From the IMG/VR virus record IMGVR_UViG_3300010412_000003, positions 1 to 64,000 of that record: a stretch of DNA of 64,000 bases; one strand, given 5' to 3'. Of this stretch, positions 2,036 to 52,865 are shown one piece after another. Origin of the DNA: a virus. Both the position numbers and the translations under genes were made by a program. The notes under the pieces are model-generated. The model was not told where the DNA came from. It did no database searches and worked only from the letters and a program-made list of their open reading frames with translations. How positions within the stretch are numbered: the stretch's first letter is position 1; each line of letters starts with the position of its first letter.

Positions 2036-2067
2036 GATTGGTAATTGAGTTTAGTAAGGATGGTAAT

Positions 2068-2997
2068 ATGGGAAATTTTGATGTAGAAAAACATAAGATT
2101 TTTGAATGTATATCTGGTAGTCGTTTGTATGGGTTGAACAAACCCAATTCTGATTTTGATTATCGGGGTGTTGTGATTCCACCAATGGAAGTTCTTTTAA
2201 ATCCTTTTGAAAGCTTTGAGCAGAAAGACAAGGGTTTTGAAGAGGAAGATAGAACATTATATGCACTTGGAAAGTTCTTCAAACTTTGTGCTGATGCAAA
2301 CCCAAATATTGTTGAGCTTTTGTTTGTTCCACAATCACACATCCTATTTAAAACACCACATTGGAATTTAATCTTGCAGAACAAACACTTGTTCCTGAGC
2401 AAGAAAGCAAAGTATACATTTACTGGATATGCATTCAGCCAGTTGAAATCAATTCAGTCTCACAGGGTATGGTTTACAAACCCACCAGATCACAAACCAA
2501 CAAGAGAAGAGTTTGGTCTTATGGGGCATAGAAGTGTCAGCACAAAATTTGCTGAATTGGTTGCCAGTGGTGATTTGAGACTTGAGTATCTAAATGAAGA
2601 GTATGCAACTGAGGCAAGAAAAGAATTTGGGTATGCCAAGGCAAAAGAGGTTTGGGATAACTATATGTCTTGGTTCAATGGAAGAAATCCAGAGCGAAAA
2701 GCACTTGAGGAAAAATTTGGTTATGATACAAAAATGGCATCACATCTTTTTAGATTGATGTTGGAAGGTAGAGAGCTTTTACTGGAAGGTAAGATAACAT
2801 TTCCTCTTCCAGAGGCAGAGTTCGTCTTGGCAGTAAAAGAGGGAAAGTATACATATGAGGAAGTTCTTGAAATGGCTAAAGATTTTGACAATCAGTTTCA
2901 GGAATGGCATGATGTATCTGATCTTCCAAAAGCACCTGATCGAAAAAAGCTTGCTGATCTTTATTATTCACTAATCAATATAGAGGTTAGGAAATGA
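2068..2997 (+). CDS. RlaP-type (Pol-beta superfamily) nucleotidyltransferase
   Basis: SGSRLYGLNKPNSDFDYRGV (GS..DxD), ANPNIVELL, GYDTKMASHLFRL motifs. Confidence 0.85.
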   Translation: MGNFDVEKHKIFECISGSRLYGLNKPNSDFDYRGVVIPPMEVLLNPFESFEQKDKGFEEEDRTLYALGKFFKLCADANPNIVELLFVPQSHILFKTPHWNLILQNKHLFLSKKAKYTFTGYAFSQLKSIQSHRVWFTNPPDHKPTREEFGLMGHRSVSTKFAELVASGDLRLEYLNEEYATEARKEFGYAKAKEVWDNYMSWFNGRNPERKALEEKFGYDTKMASHLFRLMLEGRELLLEGKITFPLPEAEFVLAVKEGKYTYEEVLEMAKDFDNQFQEWHDVSDLPKAPDRKKLADLYYSLINIEVRK

Positions 2998-4656: not shown

Positions 4657-4760
4657 TGGTAGTGATAACTGAAAAATTAATTAAGGCTGTAGTAATTACA
4701 ATTGGTGTTCTTTTAATAGTTGGAATAATTGCAGGTTTGTATTTTTGGGCAATGGGATAA
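4656..4760 (+). CDS. small membrane protein (34 aa)
   Basis: MVVITEKLIKAVVITIGVLLIVGIIAGLYFWAMG; TAATG coupling, AAGGTGG RBS. Confidence 0.5.
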   Translation: MVVITEKLIKAVVITIGVLLIVGIIAGLYFWAMG

Positions 4761-4764
4761 TAAA

Positions 4765-5163
4765 ATGAAGATTTTATTTTTAGAAGACAATGATGAAAGA
4801 ATTTTCAAAGCACAGCAATTGTATAAAAATGTTGAGGTCTTATCAATTGCGAAGACAGCATCTATTGCAATTGAATTTTTGAAAACAAGACTTTCATATG
4901 ATGTAGTTCATTTAGACCATGATCTCGGTGGTGAAGTGTATGTTGACTCAAGTCGAGAAGATTGTGGCATGGAAGTTGTTAGGTTTTTATGCGAGAACAA
5001 TCACATTTATTCTGATGTTGTCAAGGTTGTTACAGTACACTCTTGGAATATACCAGCATCACAGGAAATGTTTAAGAAGTTGCGTGAGGCTGGATATACA
5101 ACATTTATGATTCCCTTTGGTGTTCAAAATTGGGATATTGGAAATCATATTGATCTTGTTTGA
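4765..5163 (+). CDS. cyclic-phosphate processing receiver-domain protein
   Basis: MKILFLED, VHLDHDLGG, CGMEVVRFL, VHSWN motifs of the stand-alone receiver-like family. Confidence 0.75.
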   Translation: MKILFLEDNDERIFKAQQLYKNVEVLSIAKTASIAIEFLKTRLSYDVVHLDHDLGGEVYVDSSREDCGMEVVRFLCENNHIYSDVVKVVTVHSWNIPASQEMFKKLREAGYTTFMIPFGVQNWDIGNHIDLV

Positions 5164-5421: not shown

Positions 5422-6279
5422 ATGTTCAACAAATACACTGAGTATATCAACAATTTGAAAGCAGAAGGAAAAAGCGAACACACTATTGCATCATACTCTG
5501 CTGGAATTGAACCTTTCTTGAACCACTTTGGAATCAACACTGTGGAAGATATTGTAAATATTTCCAAAAGCGAAATTGTAGAATATCGAAATTCAATTAA
5601 TGGAAAACCATCCACTGTAAATGCGAGAATGAGACCAGTGAAGGCATTTCTAAACTGGATGGTTGACATGGATTACATTGAAACCAATCCTGTATCACGA
5701 ATTAAAAGTTTGAAAGAATCAAAGAGAGTTCCATTGATTTTGACAGATGAAGAGGTTATTGCAATGTTGAATGCTTGTGATAACACTCAGGAAAAACTCA
5801 TGGTTGCAATGATGATCACAACTGGAATGCGAGTAAATGAATTAGTTCTGGCAAAAGTTAGTGATGTTCGTGAAAATAGAATTCTTGTTCATGGAAAAGG
5901 TGACAAGGAGCGTTGGGTTGCATTGCAGAGTTGGGTAGTTGATCTTTTGAATGCACATCTTTCAGAGAATAAAGATGAATATCTTTTCCCATCACGCAGG
6001 GGTGGTGATCAGGTAACTACAAATGCAATTCGTTATCGAATCAAGAGAATTGCTAAGAATGCTGGTGTTGAAGAAGAACGTCTTTCTAAGATCACACCAC
6101 ACTCAACTCGAAGATACTTTGCAACTGCTGTATTGAATAATGGAACAGACATTGCTGTTGTGCAACAACTTATGGGACATGCATCAATCAACACAACATT
6201 GCGCTATGCACAGGTTTTGCACTCAACTATGGACAATGCTCTTGAGAGCAAGTTTGGGAATTTCAACAATGGGAAGTAA
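5422..6279 (+). CDS. XerC/D-like tyrosine recombinase/integrase
   Basis: TGMRVNEL, HGKGDKER, HSTRRYFAT, MGH...TTLRY catalytic R-K-H-R-H-Y. Confidence 0.93.
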   Translation: MFNKYTEYINNLKAEGKSEHTIASYSAGIEPFLNHFGINTVEDIVNISKSEIVEYRNSINGKPSTVNARMRPVKAFLNWMVDMDYIETNPVSRIKSLKESKRVPLILTDEEVIAMLNACDNTQEKLMVAMMITTGMRVNELVLAKVSDVRENRILVHGKGDKERWVALQSWVVDLLNAHLSENKDEYLFPSRRGGDQVTTNAIRYRIKRIAKNAGVEEERLSKITPHSTRRYFATAVLNNGTDIAVVQQLMGHASINTTLRYAQVLHSTMDNALESKFGNFNNGK

Positions 6280-6967: not shown

Positions 6968-7073
6968 AAATGACGAAGAGGGTTTTGGAATTGAACTTGA
7001 GTATCTTGACTGGTTTGCAATTCTAATGATTGTTGTTATGGTTGGAACTTTTGCTGTAGAATTATCTAAATAA
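6954..7073 (+). CDS. small membrane protein (39 aa)
   Basis: MRIYKNDEEGFGIELEYLDWFAILMIVVMVGTFAVELSK, fills intergenic gap. Confidence 0.45.
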   Translation: MRIYKNDEEGFGIELEYLDWFAILMIVVMVGTFAVELSK

Positions 7074-7100
7074 AAGAAGTGTTTTATTAAGGAATATAAA

Positions 7101-7583
7101 ATGAAAACAGAAGAGGTTATGAAAAGAGAGGATGTGAATAATTTAAAGAAGGTCAGCAAGTCTGACACACACTTTATGTTGTATGCAAAATATCATTATG
7201 AAAAATCAAATGATGTTATTGGTGATCTCATTACAATTTATAAAAGATTTTATGTTGTTCCTGATCAGGTAATTGACAATGATTTGGAAAGAGAATATTG
7301 TATTAAATATATTTTTTCTATTTTGAGAGATATGGTTTATGAATATTATCTTAATGAATCAGGGGTAAATCAAGAATATCGTTTTCAGGAAATTATCAAA
7401 ACAATGAGAAATGCTAGTCATGATGTTGGATATATTTTGGGATTTTTGAGTATGATTTCATTAGTAAAAGTTAAAGATGTATTAGAGCTTGCAGAAGAGG
7501 CAGATGAAACATTGTTACCATTGTCAAAAGGTTTGATTGAAAAAAGAAGGCTTGAATTACTTGACAATAAATATAACCTATGA
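7101..7583 (+). CDS. hypothetical protein
   Basis: 160-aa ORF with AAGGA RBS. Confidence 0.65.
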   Translation: MKTEEVMKREDVNNLKKVSKSDTHFMLYAKYHYEKSNDVIGDLITIYKRFYVVPDQVIDNDLEREYCIKYIFSILRDMVYEYYLNESGVNQEYRFQEIIKTMRNASHDVGYILGFLSMISLVKVKDVLELAEEADETLLPLSKGLIEKRRLELLDNKYNL

Positions 7584-7589
7584 TAGAAT
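7561..7589 (+). promoter_or_regulatory. sigma70/sigmaA promoter
   Basis: TTGACA-17 bp-TAGAAT with TG extension. Confidence 0.8.
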
Positions 7590-7631
7590 CATCACTAAGA
7601 TAAACAATAACTTAAATAGGAGATTAATTAA

Positions 7632-8063
7632 ATGAAAAATCAAATTGTTTATGATGAAGATGGAAATCCAGTAGGTGTTTTGGATATTAAAAAGGGAGAA
7701 TATCTTCCACTGCTAACCAATAAAGTTGTAAATGGTATTACAGAAATTGTTAACAGCACTGCTGAAAATGGAATTAGGGAACTGTCAAAAAATATTGTTG
7801 AAATGATCTTTGGTGGTGTTACAACTATTGTGGTTACTCGACATTCAAGTTGGGTTGCAGGGTTTCAGTATGACAGTTTGAATGAAGCTTTGATTGTTTA
7901 CACAAAGCGAGAAGGTTATAATGATGAACACATGATTAATCTTGATAAGTATTACACCATAGAAAATGTTACTTGGAGTGAGGTTTCTTATCTTATTGAA
8001 ACTGCAAAAGTTGGAAATTCTATTGGCAGGGTTATTCATAGAATGCAAAATGCTCGAAAATAG
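7632..8063 (+). CDS. KTSC-like domain protein (C-terminal)
   Basis: SSWVAGFQYD...LIVYTK...YYTIENV...SIGRVIH resembles the KTSC pattern SSxIxxxxYD..L.V.F...Y.Y.xV...S.GR. Confidence 0.55.
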   Translation: MKNQIVYDEDGNPVGVLDIKKGEYLPLLTNKVVNGITEIVNSTAENGIRELSKNIVEMIFGGVTTIVVTRHSSWVAGFQYDSLNEALIVYTKREGYNDEHMINLDKYYTIENVTWSEVSYLIETAKVGNSIGRVIHRMQNARK

Positions 8064-8076
8064 ACTGACCAATTTC

Positions 8077-8104
8077 TTGACAAATAAAAAAAATCTGTTA
8101 TAAT
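8077..8104 (+). promoter_or_regulatory. sigma70/sigmaA promoter P1 of ncRNA cluster
   Basis: TTGACA-16 bp-TATAAT with TG extension; no ORF downstream. Confidence 0.75.
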
Positions 8105-8109
8105 ATTCA

Positions 8110-8190
8110 TAGTTATCCTTTTGGTTTGGTTGGTTTGTTGAAAGTCAAGGGAATTGCAGGTGGGAACTTGATGAATTCCCTTGACTTGAA
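8110..8190 (+). ncRNA. candidate small RNA: anti-SD/GU-rich 5' tail plus strong hairpin
   Basis: TAGTTATCCTTTTGGTTTGGTTGGTTTGTTG followed by stem AAGTCAAGGGAATT (8142-8155)/AATTCCCTTGACTT (8174-8187). Confidence 0.5.
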
Positions 8191-8209
8191 AATAAAATCA
8201 AGGTATAAT
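8181..8209 (+). promoter_or_regulatory. sigma70/sigmaA promoter P2 of ncRNA cluster
   Basis: TTGACT-17 bp-TATAAT. Confidence 0.75.
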
Positions 8210-8238
8210 AAATAGGAAAGTTGGACTTTTACAAAAAA

Positions 8239-8429
8239 TATAATTGGCTTTTACGCCTCTTGATCTAAATATCTGATACTGGCTGTACACTGGTGTAGGG
8301 TGGGTCGCTCTACTAGGTGAGAGGATACATCCGAGGAAGGATGGGAGTATCACCTAATCAGATGGATACCAGAGGTACACTGGTGAAGATGGGGAGACTA
8401 TCTTCCAAGGGGCATAAAAGTCAATTATA
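8239..8429 (+). ncRNA. ~190-nt multi-stem structured RNA of unknown class
   Basis: 24-bp closing stem 8239-8262/8406-8429 with G-U pairs; internal stems ATCTGAT/ATCAGAT, GTAGGGTG/CGCTCTAC, TAGGTGA/TCACCTA, GAAGATGG/CTATCTTC. Confidence 0.7.
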
Positions 8430-8434
8430 AAAAT

Positions 8435-8555
8435 GGGGTTGATCGGTTTCGACAGGTCACAGGGATTATCAGTAGGTGAAAATGCCCTTGGTGAAGACAC
8501 TGAAAATAATCGTGAACTTGTGATTTGGACAGGGGTTCAATCCCCCTCAACTCCA
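8435..8555 (+). ncRNA. ssrA: minimal tmRNA (tRNA-like domain only)
   Basis: Acceptor stem GGGGTTG/CAACTCC-A with G3-U70; D-loop ATCGGTTTCGAC; GAC + T arm AGGGG-TTCAATC-CCCCT; helix 2 AGGTCACAGG/CTTGTGATTT closed after ~55 nt. Confidence 0.85.
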
Positions 8556-8603
8556 CAGAACTTTAATAACCATTCAGATGCAATATATCTGATAAAAAAA
8601 CAA

Positions 8604-9219
8604 ATAGCATGGGTTGGTTGGATTTCCAGCAACCGTCAAGTTTCGTATAAAGGAAACAAGAAGAGTTATAAAACCTCTTCCATGTTATTTGCCAAGGAAC
8701 ATAACTTGGGTTGACTAGCCAGTAAAGTAGGGAAGAAGGGTAGTTTTGCAAACCACTGTGAGTTAGAAACGTAATCTGTCTCACCAGTTAGTAAGGCTAG
8801 CAAGTCCTTTGCAAGACTACTACGTGAAGGCAAAAATCTGGAAGCACCAGATCAGTAGAACGACTCCTACACCCAAGATATAAAATTATTGGTAAATTAT
8901 CGGTAGATGTTGGAACGTGCTATCATGGTTGGTGAATGGTCTTTGTAAAGCCACTAAAAGGTAGAAGACTAGACGGTAACTAAAACACCATGCAGGAAAT
9001 ACAATAACCTGCCTCACCAGTTCCAACAAAATTTTGAAGATTTTCAGGGAATGATAGGTTAGCCACCTAACTCTTAGGAGAGAAAGCAGATAAAAACTAT
9101 CTCCCAAGGATGGTTCTGTAGGGTACTGAGAGGAACAGACAACTGGATACTTGGGTTAGAAAAAATCCTATCCTCATGTAATGGCTTGTGGGGTTGTCAT
9201 TCCCTGAAAGTTTTCAAAA
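8604..9219 (+). ncRNA. ~600-nt large ornate ncRNA candidate (ROOL/GOLLD size class)
   Basis: No credible ORF; many stems incl. 8740-8752/8808-8820, 8908-8916/9020-9028, 26-bp 9032-9057/9194-9219 with four G-U pairs; near a tRNA. Confidence 0.7.
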
Positions 9220-9251
9220 CAAAATGAAATACAAAACCAAAGGAGATAAAA

Positions 9252-9428
9252 ATGTTTAGCGAACTTGTTGCACTTTATGCTGGATTGTTTTTTGTTGTTT
9301 TCAGTTTTGTGGTAGAACCATCAAAGAATTTTGTGTCAAAACTTTTGTTCAAAGCAATTCCATTTATTTTTGGCATGTTGTTGTTGGTATCTTGGGCAAG
9401 TTTACGTGGTTGGCTTGTTATAGTATAA
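9252..9428 (+). CDS. small two-helix membrane protein (58 aa)
   Basis: AAGGAG RBS; MFSELVALYAGLFFVVFSFVVEPSKNFVSKLLFKAIPFIFGMLLLVSWASLRGWLVIV. Confidence 0.7.
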   Translation: MFSELVALYAGLFFVVFSFVVEPSKNFVSKLLFKAIPFIFGMLLLVSWASLRGWLVIV

Positions 9429-9443
9429 AAAATGTAATAAAAT

Positions 9444-9516
<73 letters not shown>

Positions 9517-9545
9517 CCTTGTGAGATTATAAGGAGGTCGTGATA

Positions 9546-9668
9546 ATGCTAAGACTTTTATGCTGGTTTAGAAATGAATATGAAGTTTTGTGGTGTGATT
9601 GGTGTAAAATCATGACTGTCCACAAATGGAATGGCGAAGATTGGGTTTGTTCAAGAAATCATAGGTAA
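9546..9668 (+). CDS. small zinc-finger-like protein (40 aa)
   Basis: AAGGAGG RBS; WCDWC...H...CSRNH. Confidence 0.6.
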   Translation: MLRLLCWFRNEYEVLWCDWCKIMTVHKWNGEDWVCSRNHR

Positions 9669-9672
9669 TATA

Positions 9673-9702
9673 AAAAGTCCTCTATTTTATTAGAGGACTT
9701 TT
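9673..9702 (+). terminator. intrinsic terminator-like hairpin
   Basis: AAAAGTCCTCTA-6 nt-TAGAGGACTTTT. Confidence 0.65.
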
Positions 9703-9717
9703 ATCTAGGAGGTAAAA

Positions 9718-9876
9718 ATGGAAAAGCTTATTTTTTATTGCATATTCTCTTTGATAATTACTGCTCTGGTTACGCTTACCATATTTGGTGGTGGGATAAG
9801 ACCATCTGAGAGAGTTGCTACATCTTTATATGATTATGACGATATTGAAGAACCAAAGGAAGACGAAAATGTGTGA
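9718..9876 (+). CDS. small membrane protein (52 aa)
   Basis: AGGAGG RBS; N-terminal hydrophobic helix, acidic tail. Confidence 0.6.
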   Translation: MEKLIFYCIFSLIITALVTLTIFGGGIRPSERVATSLYDYDDIEEPKEDENV

Positions 9877-9985
9877 TCTAAATTGCGTTGGTATGATTGG
9901 ATTAATTCTTGGGATAAGCATGACCACAATTATCACCTGTGTTCTTATGATAAGAATTAAAGAAAGGGAGGAAAGTGTTGAATAA
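9869..9985 (+). CDS. small membrane protein (38 aa)
   Basis: MCDLNCVGMIGLILGISMTTIITCVLMIRIKEREESVE, overlaps previous stop. Confidence 0.5.
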   Translation: MCDLNCVGMIGLILGISMTTIITCVLMIRIKEREESVE

Positions 9986-10000
9986 AATTACACTTTTATT
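9981..10000. repeat. palindromic motif AATAAAA-N6-TTTTATT, copy 1 (others at 18342, 37122, 55041; near copy 26727)
   Basis: Four exact copies, all at gene boundaries. Confidence 0.6.
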
Positions 10001-10099
10001 TTTCATTTTGTTTATAACAAACCCATATTTGAAAATTATATTTGGAAGTGTGTTTGATTATTTTTATGAAAAATTTGTTGTCAAATCATTGGTGAGAAA

Positions 10100-10429
10100 A
10101 TGAAACAAAGAATTTTATTTATTTTTATCTTGCTATTGTTTGTTTCTTTGTTTATTTCTACAGATGGAATTTCTCCAAAATGTTTTGAAAATTATGAGGG
10201 TTATGTTATTGGTGATATTATTCTTGATAAACTTCCAAGTAATGTTTCATGTTCATTTGCAGATAAAGAACCAATGATAATAAAGTTTTCAATAACAAAC
10301 TCACATCTTATTTATTATAATACTAATGGTGAAATACAAGCACACAAATATATCTGTTATCCTATAACTGAAAAATATTTTTCTTGTGAGATATGGGTTG
10401 AAAAACCTGATCGTTTTGTATATTGGTGA
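10100..10429 (+). CDS. putative secreted/membrane protein
   Basis: N-terminal signal-like hydrophobic stretch. Confidence 0.55.
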   Translation: MKQRILFIFILLLFVSLFISTDGISPKCFENYEGYVIGDIILDKLPSNVSCSFADKEPMIIKFSITNSHLIYYNTNGEIQAHKYICYPITEKYFSCEIWVEKPDRFVYW

Positions 10430-10486
10430 CAGACAAGCCACCAGAGATTCACACGCACTTTTTCAAAAATTCTATAAAATTGGGGC

Positions 10487-10515
10487 TTGCAAAAAAACGA
10501 ATTTTGTGGTATGAT
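10487..10515 (+). promoter_or_regulatory. sigma70/sigmaA promoter of replication block
   Basis: TTGCAA-17 bp-TATGAT with TG extension. Confidence 0.6.
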
Positions 10516-10711
10516 ATTTTTTGATCAAGATTTTTTTAAAAAAAATAATTTTCTTTTTTTTATAAGCTTGGGTTATTTCGGGCATAATCAAATTGGAGGA
10601 AAACAAAAAGATACATAAATAGATAATAAAAAAAATAAAAACAAAAAAATAAAAAATAAAAACATTGTATTTAAAAATATAAAAAATAAAAGGATTATGA
10701 GGTAAAAAAAC

Positions 10712-11728
10712 ATGGCTAGAAATTTTGAATTACCAGAAACAAAAGGAAACTTCCAACTCAAAGGGATTGTCACTGGTGTAGGTCGTGACGGTTTCTATAA
10801 GGATGGCACTAGCACTTCTGGAAAGAAGTGGAGGGCTGTAAATTTTGGTCTTGTTGTTGAAGATGGTACTGTTTTATATCTAACACTTCTTGGAACAGAG
10901 CAAGATCGTGCATGGTTTGGTGGAAAAGAAGGTGATGAGTTTAAGACTGTTGATGTTGAATGGTCTAAGAGACATACTTTCAAAAAGGCTGGATATAAAA
11001 TTTTCGGTCTAACTCTCGGTCTTCAAAAAGATGAAGAGGGGAAAAATGACAAGAAATATCTACACCAATTTGATGCTTGTAAATATATTTCAGATAACCT
11101 AGAAGATGGTATGAGTGTATTTGTTAGGGGCAATTTAGAGTTTGGTCACTTTGTCACTGAGCAGGGTGATACTGTGAGAACACAAAAATTAGTTCCAACA
11201 CAAATTTCACTACTTAGCTCTGATATTGATTTTGATAGTGAAAAATATGAACCAGAACACAGGTTTACACAAGATATTATCTTTCTTGGAATTGATAAAG
11301 AAGGTGAGGAGTTTCCAGTAGAAGCACATCTTGTTTCTTACAGGGGAATTGAGACTGACACTTTCGTAATTCGTGACAATAAATTAGCCAAATTATTCAG
11401 GGAGAAACTTAAACCATACACAAAAATTCAAGTGCATGGTTGGGTTACAACTGCCCAAGTTGGTGAAGAGGTTTCAGAGGAAGATAGTGAAGAGGTTTGG
11501 GGTGAAGAGAATGAAATGACCAAGGCACGAACCCCATATAGAAGAATTTTTCTTGTTACTGGTGCTAATCCAAGCACTATTGATACTGAAAATTACACTC
11601 AAAAAGCAATTGAAAGTGCAATTGAGGCAATGACCAAAGACGAAAAGGCAGTTAGCGAATTTGGAAGTGAAGAGGTTTGGGGTGAGGGTGGTTCGTCAGA
11701 TACTGAATCTGATGATGAAGACTGGTAA
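10712..11728 (+). CDS. putative single-stranded DNA-binding protein
   Basis: First gene of replication block, OB-like beta-rich sequence (VFVRGNLEF), acidic tail ending DDEDW. Confidence 0.65.
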   Translation: MARNFELPETKGNFQLKGIVTGVGRDGFYKDGTSTSGKKWRAVNFGLVVEDGTVLYLTLLGTEQDRAWFGGKEGDEFKTVDVEWSKRHTFKKAGYKIFGLTLGLQKDEEGKNDKKYLHQFDACKYISDNLEDGMSVFVRGNLEFGHFVTEQGDTVRTQKLVPTQISLLSSDIDFDSEKYEPEHRFTQDIIFLGIDKEGEEFPVEAHLVSYRGIETDTFVIRDNKLAKLFREKLKPYTKIQVHGWVTTAQVGEEVSEEDSEEVWGEENEMTKARTPYRRIFLVTGANPSTIDTENYTQKAIESAIEAMTKDEKAVSEFGSEEVWGEGGSSDTESDDEDW

Positions 11729-27533: not shown

Positions 27534-27905
27534 ATGACTAGAATAAATTGCTTGCCAGTTGAAGAGTTGTCAGACCAACATCTGTTTGCTGAATATAGAG
27601 AGCTTCCAAGAGTGAGACATTTAGAACCTAGGCATAGTGATATTAAAGAATATAAATTGGGTGATGGTCATGTAAAATTCTTTTTGGATAAAGGTCTTTG
27701 GTTGCAACATCGTCATGAAGAATTAAAAAATGAATTAGATGCAAGGGGAATTCAAACAAGCATACCTGTATTATCACTTAGTTGGGATAGTGAATTTATG
27801 CTTGATTGGATTCCAACAGAAAAAGACATTGAAATTAATATTGAAAGAATTCTTGAAAGAATATATAATGGAAAAATAAAACATACATGGAGTAATAAAA
27901 AATGA
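27534..27905 (+). CDS. denV: pyrimidine-dimer DNA glycosylase (T4 endonuclease V family)
   Basis: MTRIN...LSDQHLFAEYRELPR, LGDGHVKFF. Confidence 0.92.
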   Translation: MTRINCLPVEELSDQHLFAEYRELPRVRHLEPRHSDIKEYKLGDGHVKFFLDKGLWLQHRHEELKNELDARGIQTSIPVLSLSWDSEFMLDWIPTEKDIEINIERILERIYNGKIKHTWSNKK

Positions 27906-29008
27906 GTGAAAGAACATTGGCAAGCATTCAGGTAATTGAAGACATTCAGCCAATCCCAAAATATGACAATATTGAATACGCACAAGTTTTGGGATGGTGG
28001 GTAATTGTTCGAAAAGGGGAATATGTTATTGGTGATAAAACAATTTACATTGAAATTGATTCTGTTTTACCACCTAGAGAAGAATATGAATTCTTGAGAA
28101 AACGCAATTTCAGGATTAAGACAATGAGAATGGCAGGGGTTGTTTCTCAGGGAATTTGTTTCAAGCCAGAATTACTTTTACCAAATACAAGCAGGTATAA
28201 AGTTGGTGATGATGTAACTGAAATTCTTGGAGTTGAAAAATACGAACCAGATCAATACAACAGAAAGCTACCCACAGGAAAAAAGGGTTCTCCAAAATAT
28301 CCAAAATTTTTGCTTAGATTTAAATGGTTTAGAAATCTTGTTTTGAATAGAAAAGACAATCGTGGATTTCCTAGATTTATTTCAAAGACTGATGAAACAA
28401 GAATTCAAAATATGCCATTTGTTTTTAAAGACAAAGAGACACAATATATTGTAAGAGAAAAAATTGATGGACAAAGCACAACATTTTTTCTCGAAAAGAA
28501 AAAGCTTGGATGGTTGAGGAAAACAGAATTTGATTTTGGAGTATGCTCAAGAAATTTAAGATTGTGGAAAAAAGATGATAGTCCATTTTGGTTTATTGCA
28601 AATTATCATAAAATAGAAGATGTTTTAAAATCAATTTTTGTTATCACTGATGCAAAACACTTTGTTGCAATTCAGGGAGAGACAATTTCTCCAAGCGCAC
28701 AAGGGAATAAATACTTGGTCAGTGAGCCAGAATTTTATGCTTTCAATTTTATTGTTGATGGTGTAAAAATAAATTCAATTACATCTAGTGAAATATTAAT
28801 GGATTATGGAATATCTTGGTGTCCACTTGTTGCTACGAAATTTACATTTGATGGAATTGATGATGTTGAAATGTTGATGCACTATGTTGATGGAAGATCG
28901 CATATAAATCCAAATGTTTTACGTGAGGGATTTGTTTTCAGAAATGAAAAGAAAGATGTTTCTTTCAAATGTGTGTCAAATAAATTTTTGTTAAAGTATA
29001 ATGAATGA
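27902..29008 (+). CDS. Rnl2-type ATP-dependent RNA ligase (DRB0094-like)
   Basis: N-terminal OB-like IEIDSVLP..SQG; KTDETRIQN; EKIDG adenylation motif; CSRN; QGE; REGFV; SFK. Confidence 0.9.
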   Translation: MSERTLASIQVIEDIQPIPKYDNIEYAQVLGWWVIVRKGEYVIGDKTIYIEIDSVLPPREEYEFLRKRNFRIKTMRMAGVVSQGICFKPELLLPNTSRYKVGDDVTEILGVEKYEPDQYNRKLPTGKKGSPKYPKFLLRFKWFRNLVLNRKDNRGFPRFISKTDETRIQNMPFVFKDKETQYIVREKIDGQSTTFFLEKKKLGWLRKTEFDFGVCSRNLRLWKKDDSPFWFIANYHKIEDVLKSIFVITDAKHFVAIQGETISPSAQGNKYLVSEPEFYAFNFIVDGVKINSITSSEILMDYGISWCPLVATKFTFDGIDDVEMLMHYVDGRSHINPNVLREGFVFRNEKKDVSFKCVSNKFLLKYNE

Positions 29009-51839: not shown

Positions 51840-52853
51840 TTATATAAATGCTTCATCTGCATTATCTTCTTCATCCCTAATTACATAAATCTCTGTGGTT
51901 GCAGAACTTTCATGTCCCAATAATTTTTTAGCAACCTCAATATCTTTGCCTTGTTCAACAACCAATGTAGTTGCTCTTGTTTCTCTAATCAAATGTGGGT
52001 GAACTCTTCTGCCAACAATTTCTTCAAATATTGTCCTGCACCACAAGTTAAAAGTTTCAACAGATATTCTCTTTGCAGTATCAGAACTTCCAGAAATAAA
52101 AACATACCTGCAATTATCATTTCCACGAAAATCTATCCACTTTCTGATTGACTCCATAGCATCTTCATCAAATGCAAGTTGTCTAATCTTCCCTTCCTTA
52201 GAAGAACCTTTACAACGTATATCATGTGTCAAATAATATTTTGAAGTCCTTTCCTCTAAAACACCATCTTCATTTAAAACACTTATTGTTTTAATTTTTG
52301 GCTCATAATCAACGACCTCTTTTAATAGTTGTGCAACCTCTGATCTTCTAGCACCACTTGAAAAAGAAAATTTCAAATATGCCAAGTGTTGCCACAATCC
52401 TCTTTTTTCAAGTTCATTGCAAAGGTTTTTATATTCTTCAATTGTAAGAGGTTCTTTTTTGTTTACAAACTTCTGCTTTGGAGCAGGAATACCCTTGCTT
52501 ACATAGTTTCTAAACGTGGGGTATTCATCTTCATAAAAAACCTCAATATAATTATTCAAACTTGAAACGGCACTTCTCTTAAGTCTTATACCAGAAGAGG
52601 ACATTCCCAATTTGGTTAAATAATTTTGATAAAACAAAAAGTCCTTACTTCTAATTTCATAAAATTTTTTATTGCCCCTATTTTCATAAACCCAATAAAA
52701 GAAAATTCTTAATGCAGATGTATATTGCTTAAGGGTATGATCACTTAAATGAATTGATTGTTCTAAATATTCTTCAACAATCTTTCTATTTTCAGAATCA
52801 ACCAAAGACCATTTTTCATCTGTAATTTCTTCCATCTTTGTTCTTTTCGCCAT
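51840..52853 (-). CDS. tyrosine recombinase within tail operon
   Basis: SGARRSE, KG, HPHLIRETRAT, LGHESSATTEIY. Confidence 0.9.
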   Translation of the reverse strand: MAKRTKMEEITDEKWSLVDSENRKIVEEYLEQSIHLSDHTLKQYTSALRIFFYWVYENRGNKKFYEIRSKDFLFYQNYLTKLGMSSSGIRLKRSAVSSLNNYIEVFYEDEYPTFRNYVSKGIPAPKQKFVNKKEPLTIEEYKNLCNELEKRGLWQHLAYLKFSFSSGARRSEVAQLLKEVVDYEPKIKTISVLNEDGVLEERTSKYYLTHDIRCKGSSKEGKIRQLAFDEDAMESIRKWIDFRGNDNCRYVFISGSSDTAKRISVETFNLWCRTIFEEIVGRRVHPHLIRETRATTLVVEQGKDIEVAKKLLGHESSATTEIYVIRDEEDNADEAFI

Positions 52854-52865
52854 ACAAACCTCCAA

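What the first reader, a model, noticed from the sequence alone, without database searches (positions are those of the whole stretch)
8435..8555. Miniature tmRNA consisting only of the tRNA-like domain
Seen: 5' GGGGUUGAUCGGUUUCGAC and 3' GGACAGGGGUUCAAUCCCCCUCAACUCCA are tmRNA-type ends (G3-U70 alanine identity pair, A discriminator, unpaired D loop, GAC before the T arm), but they are only ~120 nt apart. Helix 2 (AGGUCACAGG/CUUGUGAUUU, then GAUUAU-CAGU/ACUG-AUAAUC) closes on a short loop, leaving no room for pseudoknots or a tag reading frame; CCA is not fully encoded. Known: normal tmRNA is ~350 nt, and the tRNA-like domain is the SmpB/EF-Tu/AlaRS-binding part; from memory, similarly reduced phage versions are rare. 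Inference: an SmpB decoy that blocks host trans-translation, or a tag-less ribosome-rescue RNA.
Basis: partly seen in the sequence, partly recalled or inferred. Interest (0 to 1): 0.85.

Follow-up and report, generated by a model that had tools for sequence, protein, structure and literature searches.

The report
Phage miniature tmRNA, long form
An uncultured phage carries a real 121-base cut-down version of the bacterial ribosome-rescue RNA (tmRNA) that keeps the alanine-accepting end but has no tag message; the kind is known from one mycobacteriophage, and it most likely competes with the host's own rescue RNA.

Summary
Window 8435-8555 (+) matches Rfam tmRNA end to end (66.9 bits, cutoff 47, E 7e-24), with 290 interior model positions replaced by 41 nt. 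It has a 7-bp acceptor stem with G3-U70, discriminator A, the unpaired D-loop analogue, GAC/GGAC, a T arm and helix 2. It has no pseudoknots, no tag frame and no encoded CCA.

It is not a bare tRNA-like domain. Helix 2 carries a conserved cap: an RGUA/GAAA internal loop, a 4-bp stem and a 19-nt loop starting AAAAUGCCC. At least 125 loci in viral, metagenome and genome collections hold such miniatures. A covariance model alignment of 73 rows gives 93% paired cells against 63% in shuffles, with every helix covarying.

The kind is published once: mycobacteriophage DS6A, "TLD only", about 80 nt (PMC4131195). The ~120-nt form was not found in print. This scan has reported the same kind before on other DNA.

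Five of five tested genomes with a miniature also have a full-length tmRNA. The best reading is an alanine-chargeable competitor of host tmRNA for SmpB and stalled ribosomes. No function was tested. Verdict: new variant of a known kind, moderate interest.

The parts
8077..8104 (+). Promoter-like site P1 (TTGACA, 16-nt spacer, TATAAT, with TG before the -10)
   Evidence: 12 of 12 consensus matches. This is a consensus match only; no transcription start was mapped.
8181..8209 (+). Promoter-like site P2 (TTGACT, 17-nt spacer, TATAAT)
   Evidence: 11 of 12 consensus matches. No + strand terminator-like site lies between it and 9172.
8435..8555 (+). Miniature tmRNA gene, 121 nt up to the discriminator A8555
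   Evidence: RF00023 66.9 bits, E 6.8e-24. Family model R1 124.5 bits, the only R1 hit in the window. It is the only RF00023 match in the 84.5-kb record.
8435..8441 (+). Acceptor stem, 5' strand (pairs with 8548-8554; includes G3 of the G3-U70 pair)
   Evidence: 7 of 7 pairs. In the family alignment G-U at pair 3 occurs in 71 of 73 rows, and pairs 5 and 6 covary.
8442..8453 (+). D-loop analogue without a D stem, ending in GAC
   Evidence: Aligned to the conserved tmRNA consensus positions. Invariant columns in alignments A1 and A2.
8454..8463 (+). Helix 2a, 5' strand (pairs with 8517-8526; 10 bp, four of them G-U)
   Evidence: MFE fold. In the family, 7 of 7 modelled pairs of this helix change on both sides (helix 2).
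8464..8469 (+). Helix 2b, 5' strand (pairs with 8506-8511)
   Evidence: MFE fold. 6 of 6 pairs covary and 86% of cells are paired (helix 4).
8470..8474 (+). Internal loop, 5' side: CAGUA (opposite GAAA at 8502-8505)
   Evidence: N-R-G-U-A opposite G-A-A-A is conserved in the window-type subgroup. The resemblance to a bulged-G (loop E) motif is recalled and was not tested.
8475..8478 (+). Apical stem h3, 5' strand GGUG (pairs with CACU at 8498-8501)
   Evidence: 4 of 4 pairs change on both sides and 92% of cells are paired (helix 5). A check using sequence anchors only gives 40 of 48 cells paired, against 8-27 of 48 in shifted registers.
8479..8497 (+). Apical loop, 19 nt, starting AAAAUGCCC and ending A-rich
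   Evidence: The A-rich/GCNC motif occurs in 37 of 69 unique long members, against a shuffle mean of 8.3 and maximum of 16. Function unknown.
8498..8501 (+). Apical stem h3, 3' strand CACU
   Evidence: See the h3 5' strand.
8502..8505 (+). Internal loop, 3' side: GAAA
   Evidence: Conserved in the subgroup.
8506..8511 (+). Helix 2b, 3' strand
8512..8516 (+). Five-base bulge GUGAA
   Evidence: Unpaired in the MFE fold. The two listed changes in a natural DNA variant (8512 G>A, 8514 G>C, run X16) fall here.
8517..8526 (+). Helix 2a, 3' strand
8527..8547 (+). GGAC plus T arm (stem 8531-8535/8543-8547, T loop UUCAAUC)
   Evidence: Rfam alignment. The three outer T-stem pairs covary and 99% of cells are paired (helix 6).
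8548..8555 (+). Acceptor stem 3' strand (includes U70) and discriminator A8555; followed by CAG, not CCA
   Evidence: In an RNA-library variant contig, dense divergence starts at 8557.
9444..9518 (+). tRNA-Arg (TCT) in the same ORF-poor cluster; also lacks an encoded CCA
   Evidence: ARAGORN. Rfam tRNA 70.3 bits. Sequence read.

Best explanation
Window 8435-8555 is a functional phage gene for a 121-nt miniature tmRNA. It is transcribed by the host polymerase from the strong promoter-like sites upstream, as part of a cluster of non-coding RNAs. Its tRNA-like ends let host RNase P and a 3' processing enzyme cut it out, and the host CCA-adding enzyme completes the 3' end. Host alanyl-tRNA synthetase charges it through G3-U70 and A73. 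Host SmpB, and then EF-Tu, bind its tRNA-like domain. It has no pseudoknots and no message, so it cannot add a degradation tag. It therefore competes with the host's full-length tmRNA for SmpB and for stalled ribosomes, and lowers tagging of truncated proteins during infection. The conserved cap on helix 2 (RGUA/GAAA loop, 4-bp stem, A-rich/GCNC loop) is a further functional site with an unknown partner. Shown: sequence, structure, family conservation, absence of a tag, and co-residence with full-length tmRNA in genomes. Inferred: processing, charging, SmpB binding and the inhibitory outcome.
For: The element matches RF00023 end to end, with every conserved tRNA-like-domain position present. 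The family is large. Loci passing the test of a 7/7 acceptor stem, G3-U70 and A73, none of which my patterns required on the 3' side, number 50 of 66 viral, 66 of 98 metagenome and 9 of 33 genome. Structure is maintained by selection: 93.3% of cells are paired, against 63.1% in shuffles and 43-55% with slid partners, and the covariation score is 0.526 against 0.081 at most. G-U at pair 3 is kept in 71 of 73 rows while neighbouring acceptor pairs vary freely, which argues that alanine charging matters. There is no tag frame in the element or the cluster, and no conserved frame in 37 relatives. The 84.5 kb held contains no phage SmpB, RF-1-type factor, peptidyl-tRNA hydrolase, CCA-adding enzyme or AlaRS, so host factors would be used. 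Five of five tested genomes or MAGs with a ~120-nt miniature also carry a full-length tmRNA of 389-427 nt. The miniature is no closer to the resident tmRNA than to the others, so it is an accessory lineage and not a decayed copy. In an RNA-library variant contig, all 8 listed substitutions (of its 9 differences; the ninth is not shown) and every listed deletion start at 8557, and none is listed within 8443-8556. [quoted passage not shown] PMC11915505 says it inhibits endogenous tmRNA in E. coli.
Against: No experiment bears on this RNA. Charging, SmpB binding and any effect on tagging are untested. Transcription is not shown: RNA-library contigs cover it, but the tool warns that DNA can be present in such libraries. 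The host is unknown, and no genome of 185,579 species has the same 3' end, so a fit to the host's SmpB cannot be checked. According to the passage in PMC4131195, the published inhibitor worked whether or not it could be charged, so strict G3-U70 conservation is not explained by simple SmpB titration and may point to a ribosome-bound role (the rival below). Why a phage gains from blocking rescue is unclear; from recall, some phages need host trans-translation. The record is only about 59% complete, so partner genes may lie in the missing part. Alignment A4 was fitted to the model, which inflates the paired percentage.
Confidence: 0.55

Rival explanations
1. It is a productive tag-less rescue RNA. 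The charged miniature, with host SmpB and EF-Tu, enters stalled ribosomes and accepts the nascent chain on its alanine. The ribosome is then freed by drop-off with peptidyl-tRNA hydrolase, or by a stop-independent release factor. Phage-hijacked ribosomes are recycled and truncated proteins are not marked for proteolysis.
For: G3-U70 and A73 are strictly kept in the family, as expected if charging and EF-Tu delivery are required. The phage carries RNA-repair genes (RlaP, a cyclic-phosphate receiver domain, an RNA ligase), which fits a phage that expects damage to its translation apparatus. CDS-less tmRNAs of some mitochondria and plastids are thought to help with incomplete mRNAs (passage in PMC11915505). 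From recall, not seen here: truncated TLD constructs enter ribosomes and accept peptide in vitro.
Against: There is no stop codon or message to end translation. No release factor or hydrolase gene was found in the record. The only experimental result cited in print for this kind is inhibition, not rescue. Host genomes with miniatures keep a full tmRNA, so there is no sign that a miniature can replace it.
Confidence: 0.2
2. It is a tRNA-shaped handle used for something other than trans-translation. It could be a processing punctuation mark that lets RNase P and a 3' enzyme cut the neighbouring non-coding RNAs out of one precursor. It could be an alanyl donor for a non-ribosomal reaction. It could be a decoy for a host defence nuclease that targets tRNA-like RNAs.
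For: It sits inside an ORF-poor cluster about 1.1 kb long behind two promoter-like sites, with no terminator-like site before 9172. It lies between other structured stretches and a tRNA. RNA-repair genes in the same phage hint at nuclease attack on RNAs.
Against: Punctuation would not need G3-U70, A73, the tmRNA-specific D-loop analogue, GAC/GGAC or a conserved helix-2 cap. The flanking RNAs are not found beside any other family member, and only 17 of 60 scanned family loci have tRNA genes nearby. The miniature therefore travels as an independent module.
Confidence: 0.08
3. It has no function of its own. It is a decaying remnant of a full-length phage tmRNA after an internal deletion, or a partial ssrA copy kept as part of an integrase attachment site.
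For: Full-length tmRNAs are common in phages: six cultured-phage or gut-contig loci were checked and five hold tmRNAs of 269-529 nt. Two tyrosine integrases are present, one only 2.2 kb upstream. Integrases often target ssrA (recalled).
Against: Compensatory changes occur in every helix across a family found in unrelated contigs. The apical motif is conserved. The body is conserved while the 3' flank diverges in a natural variant. An attachment site needs only the 3' part of ssrA, whereas both halves are present here. No genome of 185,579 species carries the matching 3' end. The miniature is not a copy of the resident tmRNA in genomes that hold both.
Confidence: 0.03

Closest known systems
TLD-only (CDS-less) tmRNA of Mycobacterium phage DS6A (tmRNA Website tmID 11587; Hudson, Lau and Williams 2014, PMC4131195; Mao et al. 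2009, seen only as cited)
   Same: Both are phage-borne. Both have a complete alanine-type tRNA-like domain, a helix 2 closed on itself, no pseudoknots and no tag frame. Both are missed or unannotated by standard annotation: DS6A's lies in an unannotated gap at NC_023744.1 28478-28560, and the window's is missed by ARAGORN.
   Different: DS6A's element is about 80 nt, its helix 2 closes on about 20 nt, and it scores 43.2 bits, below the Rfam cutoff. The window's element is 121 nt and scores 66.9 bits. It adds helix 2b, a 5-nt bulge, an RGUA/GAAA internal loop, a 4-bp stem and a conserved 19-nt loop. The hosts and phages are unrelated.
Canonical one-piece tmRNA (ssrA; Rfam RF00023), including full-length phage tmRNAs
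   Same: Acceptor stem with G3-U70 and A73, D-loop analogue, GAC/GGAC, T arm and the base of helix 2.
   Different: The four pseudoknots, the resume codon, the tag frame and helix 5 are missing: 290 of 374 model positions are absent and there is no tag. Of six cultured-phage or gut-contig loci checked, five hold tmRNAs of 269-529 nt.
CDS-less organellar tmRNAs (jakobid mitochondria; about 65-bp plastid forms of Mallomonadaceae, PMC11915505)
   Same: Reduced to the tRNA-like domain, with no tag frame. They are thought to act with SmpB on incomplete mRNAs (passage seen).
   Different: They are organelle genes that replace the full RNA. Here the miniature is phage-borne and coexists with a full-length tmRNA in the genomes tested. 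Membership in the organellar Rfam family was not examined separately.
Two-piece (permuted) tmRNA of alphaproteobacteria, cyanobacteria and their phages
   Same: A small acceptor-bearing RNA is part of the system. Such RNAs are common in marine phages (PMC9004378, passages).
   Different: The gene order here is not permuted, helix 2 is closed within one chain, and there is no coding piece. The S-CAM1 and S-SSM7 loci match the permuted models, while the window does not.

Membership tests
tmRNA (RF00023, canonical) | 7-bp acceptor stem with G3-U70 and discriminator A73 (alanine identity) | tested here: met
   7 of 7 pairs, G3-U70 and A8555.
tmRNA (RF00023, canonical) | D-loop analogue without a D stem, conserved GAC/GGAC, T arm with a 7-nt T loop, and helix 2 leaving the domain | tested here: met
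   Rfam alignment over model 1-37 and 328-374. Helix 2 and the T stem covary.
tmRNA (RF00023, canonical) | Pseudoknots PK1-PK4 | tested here: not met
   290 model positions are replaced by 41 nt. The interior folds as a simple stem-loop.
tmRNA (RF00023, canonical) | Resume codon and a short tag frame ending in a stop | tested here: not met
   The frame starting at GCC has no stop up to the 3' end. There is no Ala-Ala-stop frame in 8077-9443. No frame is conserved in 37 relatives: 16, 18 and 10 of 37 have a stop before the T arm.
tmRNA (RF00023, canonical) | Alanylation, SmpB and EF-Tu binding | not testable with these tools
   This needs biochemistry. Only the sequence determinants are present.
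TLD-only / CDS-less phage tmRNA (DS6A type) | Complete tRNA-like domain with helix 2 closed on itself, and no pseudoknots or CDS | tested here: met
   DS6A was scored with the same models.
TLD-only / CDS-less phage tmRNA (DS6A type) | Encoded by a phage | tested here: met
   The source is a virus record with tape measure, tail, DnaE-type polymerase, RNR and integrase genes.
TLD-only / CDS-less phage tmRNA (DS6A type) | 'Little more than the TLD' (about 80 nt) | tested here: not met
   It is 121 nt, with an extra conserved helix-2 module. It is therefore filed as a longer variant of the kind.
TLD-only / CDS-less phage tmRNA (DS6A type) | Inhibits host tmRNA function when expressed | not testable with these tools
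   Known for a similar molecule only through citations.
tRNA (RF00005) | Anticodon arm and D stem | tested here: not met
   ARAGORN makes no tRNA call here. In the Rfam clan comparison the tmRNA model is kept.
Two-piece permuted tmRNA (RF01851, RF04321 and related) | The 3' acceptor piece is encoded upstream of the 5' coding piece | tested here: not met
   The order is standard and the RNA is one chain. The permuted models match S-CAM1 and S-SSM7 but not the window.

The most novel reading that the evidence does not exclude
The ~120-nt phage miniatures are not simple SmpB sponges. They are a distinct class of alanine-charged ribosome effectors. Their conserved helix-2 cap (a bulged-G-like RGUA/GAAA loop plus a hairpin presenting A-rich/GCN-C) docks on the ribosome or on a rescue factor. 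The phage can then reprogram what happens to stalled ribosomes, for example alanine-capping and release without a degradation tag, as a counter to host defences that cut mRNAs or tRNAs.
Probability: 0.15. Interest if true: 0.8.

Novelty: new variant of a known kind. Interest (0 to 1): 0.5.

Why it matters
Trans-translation is nearly universal in bacteria and is a drug target, yet natural inhibitors or hijackers of it are barely known. In print, phage miniature tmRNAs rest on one 80-nt example. ARAGORN-based surveys, such as the one that found tmRNAs in 402 of 18,146 phage genomes (PMC9004378), do not see the miniatures. This window and its relatives show that miniatures are common in uncultured phages. 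They also show that a longer form has its own conserved, covarying cap, and that strict retention of the alanine identity pair suggests the RNA must be charged. That gives simple experiments: charging, SmpB binding, a tagging reporter and cap mutants. These could show whether phages switch off, or take over, host ribosome rescue.

Tried and rejected
**Close relatives of this phage's element.**
- blastn of the 2-kb region against phages gave only tRNA matches.
- blastn of the 124-nt element gave only end matches. Six of those loci were fetched and scanned with Rfam: five hold full-length or two-piece tmRNAs and the sixth (L014) gave no match.
- The search for related loci with the neighbouring 338-aa protein found nothing.
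- A viral scan with the window's own T-loop variant found 0.
- A genome scan with its 3' end found 0. The host therefore remains unknown.

**Pattern limits.**
- My first pattern could not match the window itself, because the last T-loop base is C (found).
- The two long-spacing viral hits (L015, L016) fail the acceptor test.
- 24 of 33 genome hits are chance matches in GC-rich DNA.
- The short spacing was scanned only in viral contigs, so the length distribution is shaped by the scan design.

**Pseudoknot reading of the apical loop.** I considered GCCC pairing with the G run at the helix 2a/2b junction, by hand. The partner is not consistent across members and competes with covarying helices. 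I rejected it, without a formal test.

**Tag readings.**
- A Shine-Dalgarno-like AGGUGA plus AUG opening a 13-codon frame exists in the window (frame 2) but is not conserved.
- Stop codons right after GUAG occur in several members but not in the GCGAGAGGG class. I rejected this too.

**Homology of the cap to PK1, the resume region or the helix-2 A-rich bulge of full tmRNA** (consensus seen). The resemblance is only loose, and this stays open.

**Other points.**
- MAFFT misplaces the L162 group by one column, and RNAalifold on A1 did not recover the interior. I solved this with model R1.
- In the anchored check, the lazy pattern mis-anchored two of 12 sequences (the window and L005). The 40 of 48 count includes them.
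- Read laying: the RNA runs have no cover over 8077-8420 or 9106-9448, and I draw nothing from that. Cover at 9449-9520 comes from other organisms' tRNAs. A 45-nt RNA contig of X17 (8527-8559, three other letters) ends in letters that I recall as sequencing adapter. It may come from a relative or from a host tmRNA, so it is not used as evidence for an end.
- Complex prediction, structure prediction and the large protein searches were not used. They do not bear on an RNA.
- Supplementary files were not opened.
Full report
**Observation**

Rfam's tmRNA model RF00023 matches window 8435-8558 on the + strand from model position 1 to 374. The score is 66.9 bits against a cutoff of 47, with E 6.8e-24, and 290 interior model positions are replaced by 41 nt. 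A relaxed search of 7000-11000 adds nothing else nearby except the tRNA. ARAGORN finds only tRNA-Arg(TCT) at 9444-9518 and misses the element. The window is the first 64 kb of an 84,546-base virus record that CheckV rates 59% complete, and this is its only tmRNA match. The genome is phage-like: tape measure and tail proteins, a DnaE-type polymerase, helicases, RecJ, a ribonucleotide reductase and integrases. The polymerase is only about 33% identical to those of Bacillota phages and gut contigs, so the phage has no close cultured relative.

**Anatomy (window coordinates)**

| Part | Coordinates |
|---|---|
| Acceptor stem, with G3-U70 | 8435-8441 / 8548-8554 |
| Discriminator A | 8555 |
| D-loop analogue ending in GAC | 8442-8453 |
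| Helix 2a (10 bp, four G-U) | 8454-8463 / 8517-8526 |
| Bulge GUGAA | 8512-8516 |
| Helix 2b | 8464-8469 / 8506-8511 |
| Internal loop CAGUA / GAAA | 8470-8474 / 8502-8505 |
| Apical stem h3, GGUG / CACU | 8475-8478 / 8498-8501 |
| Apical loop, 19 nt, starting AAAAUGCCC | 8479-8497 |
| GGAC | 8527-8530 |
| T arm, T loop UUCAAUC | 8531-8547 |

- The bases after A8555 are CAG, so CCA is not encoded. The neighbouring tRNA-Arg also lacks it.
- The single-sequence MFE fold gives exactly these helices, but its energy is only modestly better than shuffles (z -1.94).
- Two near-consensus sigma-70-type sites (8077-8104, 12 of 12 matches; 8181-8209, 11 of 12) point into the ORF-poor stretch. No + strand terminator-like site lies before 9172.

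**A family, not a one-off**

Pattern scans looked for tmRNA-type ends lying close together. They fixed only the 5' end and the T loop.

| Collection | Spacing scanned | Loci found |
|---|---|---|
| Viral contigs | short | 57 |
| Viral contigs | middle | 7 |
| Viral contigs | long | 2 |
| Metagenome contigs | middle | 99 |
| Genomes of 185,579 species | middle | 33 |

The patterns left the 3' acceptor strand free, so I used it as a test. A full 7/7 acceptor stem with U opposite G3 and a discriminator A is found in 50 of 66 viral loci, 66 of 98 metagenome loci and 9 of 33 genome loci. That makes 104 distinct sequences of 65-132 nt.
- The failures in bacterial genomes are chance hits in GC-rich DNA, which shows that the test discriminates.
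- Most viral 'failures' are a one-base start offset. 64 of 66 viral loci have G3-U70 and A73.
- Six of the seven middle-spacing viral loci exceed the Rfam cutoff at 100-117 nt.
- By contrast, of six cultured-phage or gut-contig loci that matched the window's ends, five hold full-length or two-piece tmRNAs of 269-529 nt and the sixth gave no Rfam match.

**Structure is under selection**

- RNAalifold on 22 MAFFT-aligned members recovers the acceptor stem, helix 2a and the T arm, with compensatory changes in 11 of 19 pairs.
- MAFFT did not register the interior. I therefore built covariance model R1 from the four cleanly aligned members and realigned 71 sources, which gave 73 rows.
- On that alignment 93.3% of cells pair, against 63.1% in shuffles (0 of 500 reach the observed value) and 43-55% when partners are slid by 1-3 columns. 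The covariation score is 0.526 against 0.081 at most for slid partners.
- All helices, including 2b and h3, have changes on both sides.
- The alignment is fitted to the model, so I added a check that uses only sequence anchors: the 4 nt after GUA against the 4 nt before GAA. It gives 40 of 48 cells paired, against 8-27 of 48 in shifted registers, even with two mis-anchored rows.

**The cap on helix 2**

The element is more than a tRNA-like domain. In the window-type subgroup of 10 distinct sequences, helix 2b is followed by N-R-G-U-A. A 4-bp stem follows that differs between members (GGUG/CACY, GCGU/ACGC, GGAG/CUCC, ACCG/CGGC). Then comes a 16-20 nt loop beginning AAA(A)-N-GC(C/G)-C, and G-A-A-A on the return strand.
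- From recall, RGUA opposite GAA is the sequence signature of a bulged-G (loop E, sarcin-ricin type) motif. I did not test that.
- A second class has GCGAGAGGG...CCCUCGAUGA around the same kind of loop.
- The A-rich/GCNC motif occurs in 37 of 69 distinct members of 95 nt or more, against a mean of 8.3 and a maximum of 16 in 500 shuffles. It occurs in 5 of 35 short members.
- The short members instead show helix 2, an A-rich bulge and a small GC hairpin. This recalls the A-rich bulge after helix 2a in the full-length consensus.
- I could not establish what the cap corresponds to in full tmRNA, or what it binds.

**No message, no partner genes**

- No frame in 8077-9443 ends in Ala-Ala-stop.
- Anchored on the conserved GCN, a stop precedes the T arm in 16 of 37 members (frame +0), 18 of 37 (+1) and 10 of 37 (+2), at scattered lengths. 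The window's frame +0 runs off the 3' end.
- The 93-codon ORF 8433-8714 that overlaps the element is not credible. A natural variant has seven short deletions, 12 bases in all, within it downstream of 8557.
- The record holds no SmpB, RF-1-domain factor, peptidyl-tRNA hydrolase, CCA-adding enzyme or AlaRS. About 41% of the genome is missing, so this is not conclusive.
- The window does carry RNA-repair genes: an RlaP nucleotidyltransferase, a cyclic-phosphate receiver domain and an RNA ligase.

**Natural variation and RNA libraries**

Near-identical DNA (half or more of the sampled words) is held by 16 runs from six studies of sediment, estuary, mangrove and soil metagenomes, one of which may be the source. 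I laid three RNA runs and one DNA run.
- A 182-nt contig of an RNA library (X18) covers 8443-8636. All eight listed substitutions and all listed deletions lie at 8557 or beyond, and none is listed inside the miniature. One further difference is not shown.
- A DNA variant (X16) has its two listed changes at 8512 and 8514, in the predicted bulge. Five further differences of that piece are not shown.
- This pattern fits a conserved RNA that ends at about 8555-8556.
- Presence in RNA libraries is weak support for expression only, because the tool warns that DNA may be present in them.

**Comparison with what is known**

- Passages of Hudson, Lau and Williams 2014 (PMC4131195) list 'Mycobacterium phage DS6A (TLD only)'. 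They state that a similar molecule, chargeable or not, strongly inhibits tmRNA, perhaps by titrating SmpB, citing Mao et al. 2009.
- The 2025 database paper (PMC11915505) repeats this and adds CDS-less plastid forms. Mao et al. 2009 is not in the library, and I did not see it.
- I fetched the DS6A element. It lies in an unannotated gap (NC_023744.1 28478-28560), is about 80 nt, and scores 43.2 bits on RF00023 and 36.1 bits on R1. The window's RNA is thus a longer and better-scoring variant of that kind.
- Searches found no description of a ~120-nt phage form or of its cap. These were 'mini-tmRNA' (0 papers), 'tmRNA-like' with phage (1 unrelated review, listing only), and tmRNA with phage and related terms (listings).
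- A survey of phage tmRNAs used ARAGORN (PMC9004378, passages), which does not see this form.
- This scan has reported phage mini-tmRNAs before on other DNA. Those notes gave me the DS6A lead, which I then checked myself.

**Accessory, not replacement; lineage, not copy**

- Five genomes or MAGs, labelled Anaerolineae or Chloroflexota by their record titles, carry a ~120-nt miniature. All five also have a full-length tmRNA of 389-427 nt at 127-181 bits on another contig. Binning errors are possible.
- Over 53 TLD positions the miniature matches the resident tmRNA at 39-46 positions, no better than it matches the tmRNAs of the other four genomes.
- The window shares only one weakly similar protein with any of the ten subgroup loci.
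- None of its flanking RNA sequence recurs in other family loci.
- The closest member (L158) sits in a phage-like contig.
- 17 of 60 scanned family loci have ordinary tRNA genes nearby.
- The miniature is therefore an independent module that moves among unrelated phages.

**Mechanism**

The best-supported reading is a phage-made, alanine-chargeable mimic of the tmRNA tRNA-like domain. It uses host processing enzymes, AlaRS, SmpB and EF-Tu, and competes with host tmRNA. Fewer truncated proteins would then be tagged during infection.
- Shown: the sequence determinants, the selected structure, the missing message and the coexistence with full tmRNA.
- Inferred: charging, binding and the outcome.
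- The strict retention of G3-U70 (71 of 73 rows) beside freely varying neighbouring pairs suggests that charging matters. That goes beyond a passive SmpB sponge and keeps the tag-less rescue rival alive.
- I put identity as a functional miniature tmRNA at about 0.9, the competitor mechanism at about 0.55, productive tag-less rescue at about 0.2, other uses of a tRNA-like handle at about 0.08, and a remnant or attachment-site fragment at about 0.03.

**Verdict**

This is a new variant of a known kind: a long form with a conserved cap. Interest is moderate. The kind is published and this scan has seen it before. Its abundance, the cap and the charging signal are not in print, and they make the function directly testable.

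Noticed in passing
window 8604-9219: An ORF-free stretch of about 600 nt between the mini-tmRNA and the small ORF at 9252-9428. Contigs of RNA libraries from three studies cover parts of it (X18 8657-9072, X20 8652-8899, X17 8744-8944). It has no Rfam match and no similarity to any other family locus. It is a candidate large structured RNA.
   Followed up: partly
window 8239-8429: A structured-looking leader between promoter-like site P2 and the mini-tmRNA. A 9-base word (TGGTGAAGA) at 8381-8389 recurs inside the mini-tmRNA loop at 8489-8497 (seen by eye). There is no Rfam match and no similarity in other loci.
   Followed up: partly
window 2038-2997, 4729-5163, 27902-29008, 1150-1767: RNA-repair-type genes: an RlaP nucleotidyltransferase, a cyclic-phosphate receiver domain, and an RNA ligase with a PHA02142 OB fold. 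There is also an MT-A70 methyltransferase.
   Followed up: partly
window 5422-6279 and 51840-52865: Two tyrosine recombinase or integrase genes in one phage. One lies 2.2 kb upstream of the RNA cluster.
   Followed up: no
L121 2107-2182: Three bases downstream of a window-type mini-tmRNA (1985-2103), ARAGORN calls a tRNA with a four-base anticodon (tgat). This may be a frameshift-suppressor-like tRNA beside the miniature.
   Followed up: no
L075 850-923: ARAGORN calls a tRNA with a CTA anticodon (labelled Pyl, an amber suppressor type) next to a 110-nt mini-tmRNA in a metagenome contig.
   Followed up: no
L010 108-636 (Gordonia phage GodonK, NC_048176.1): The Rfam tmRNA match spans 529 nt and encloses an annotated tRNA-His at 187-248. 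The tmRNA itself is not annotated in the record. The layout is odd, with a possible insertion inside the tmRNA gene.
   Followed up: no
L120 6088-6219: A 132-nt member whose interior is unlike the others and lacks the cap. It looks like a full-length tmRNA that lost most of its middle, so some miniatures may arise by recent deletion.
   Followed up: no
L206 479-561 (NC_023744.1 28478-28560): The published DS6A TLD-only tmRNA is not annotated in the RefSeq record. It falls below Rfam's gathering score (43.2 against 47), so standard pipelines will keep missing this kind.
   Followed up: yes
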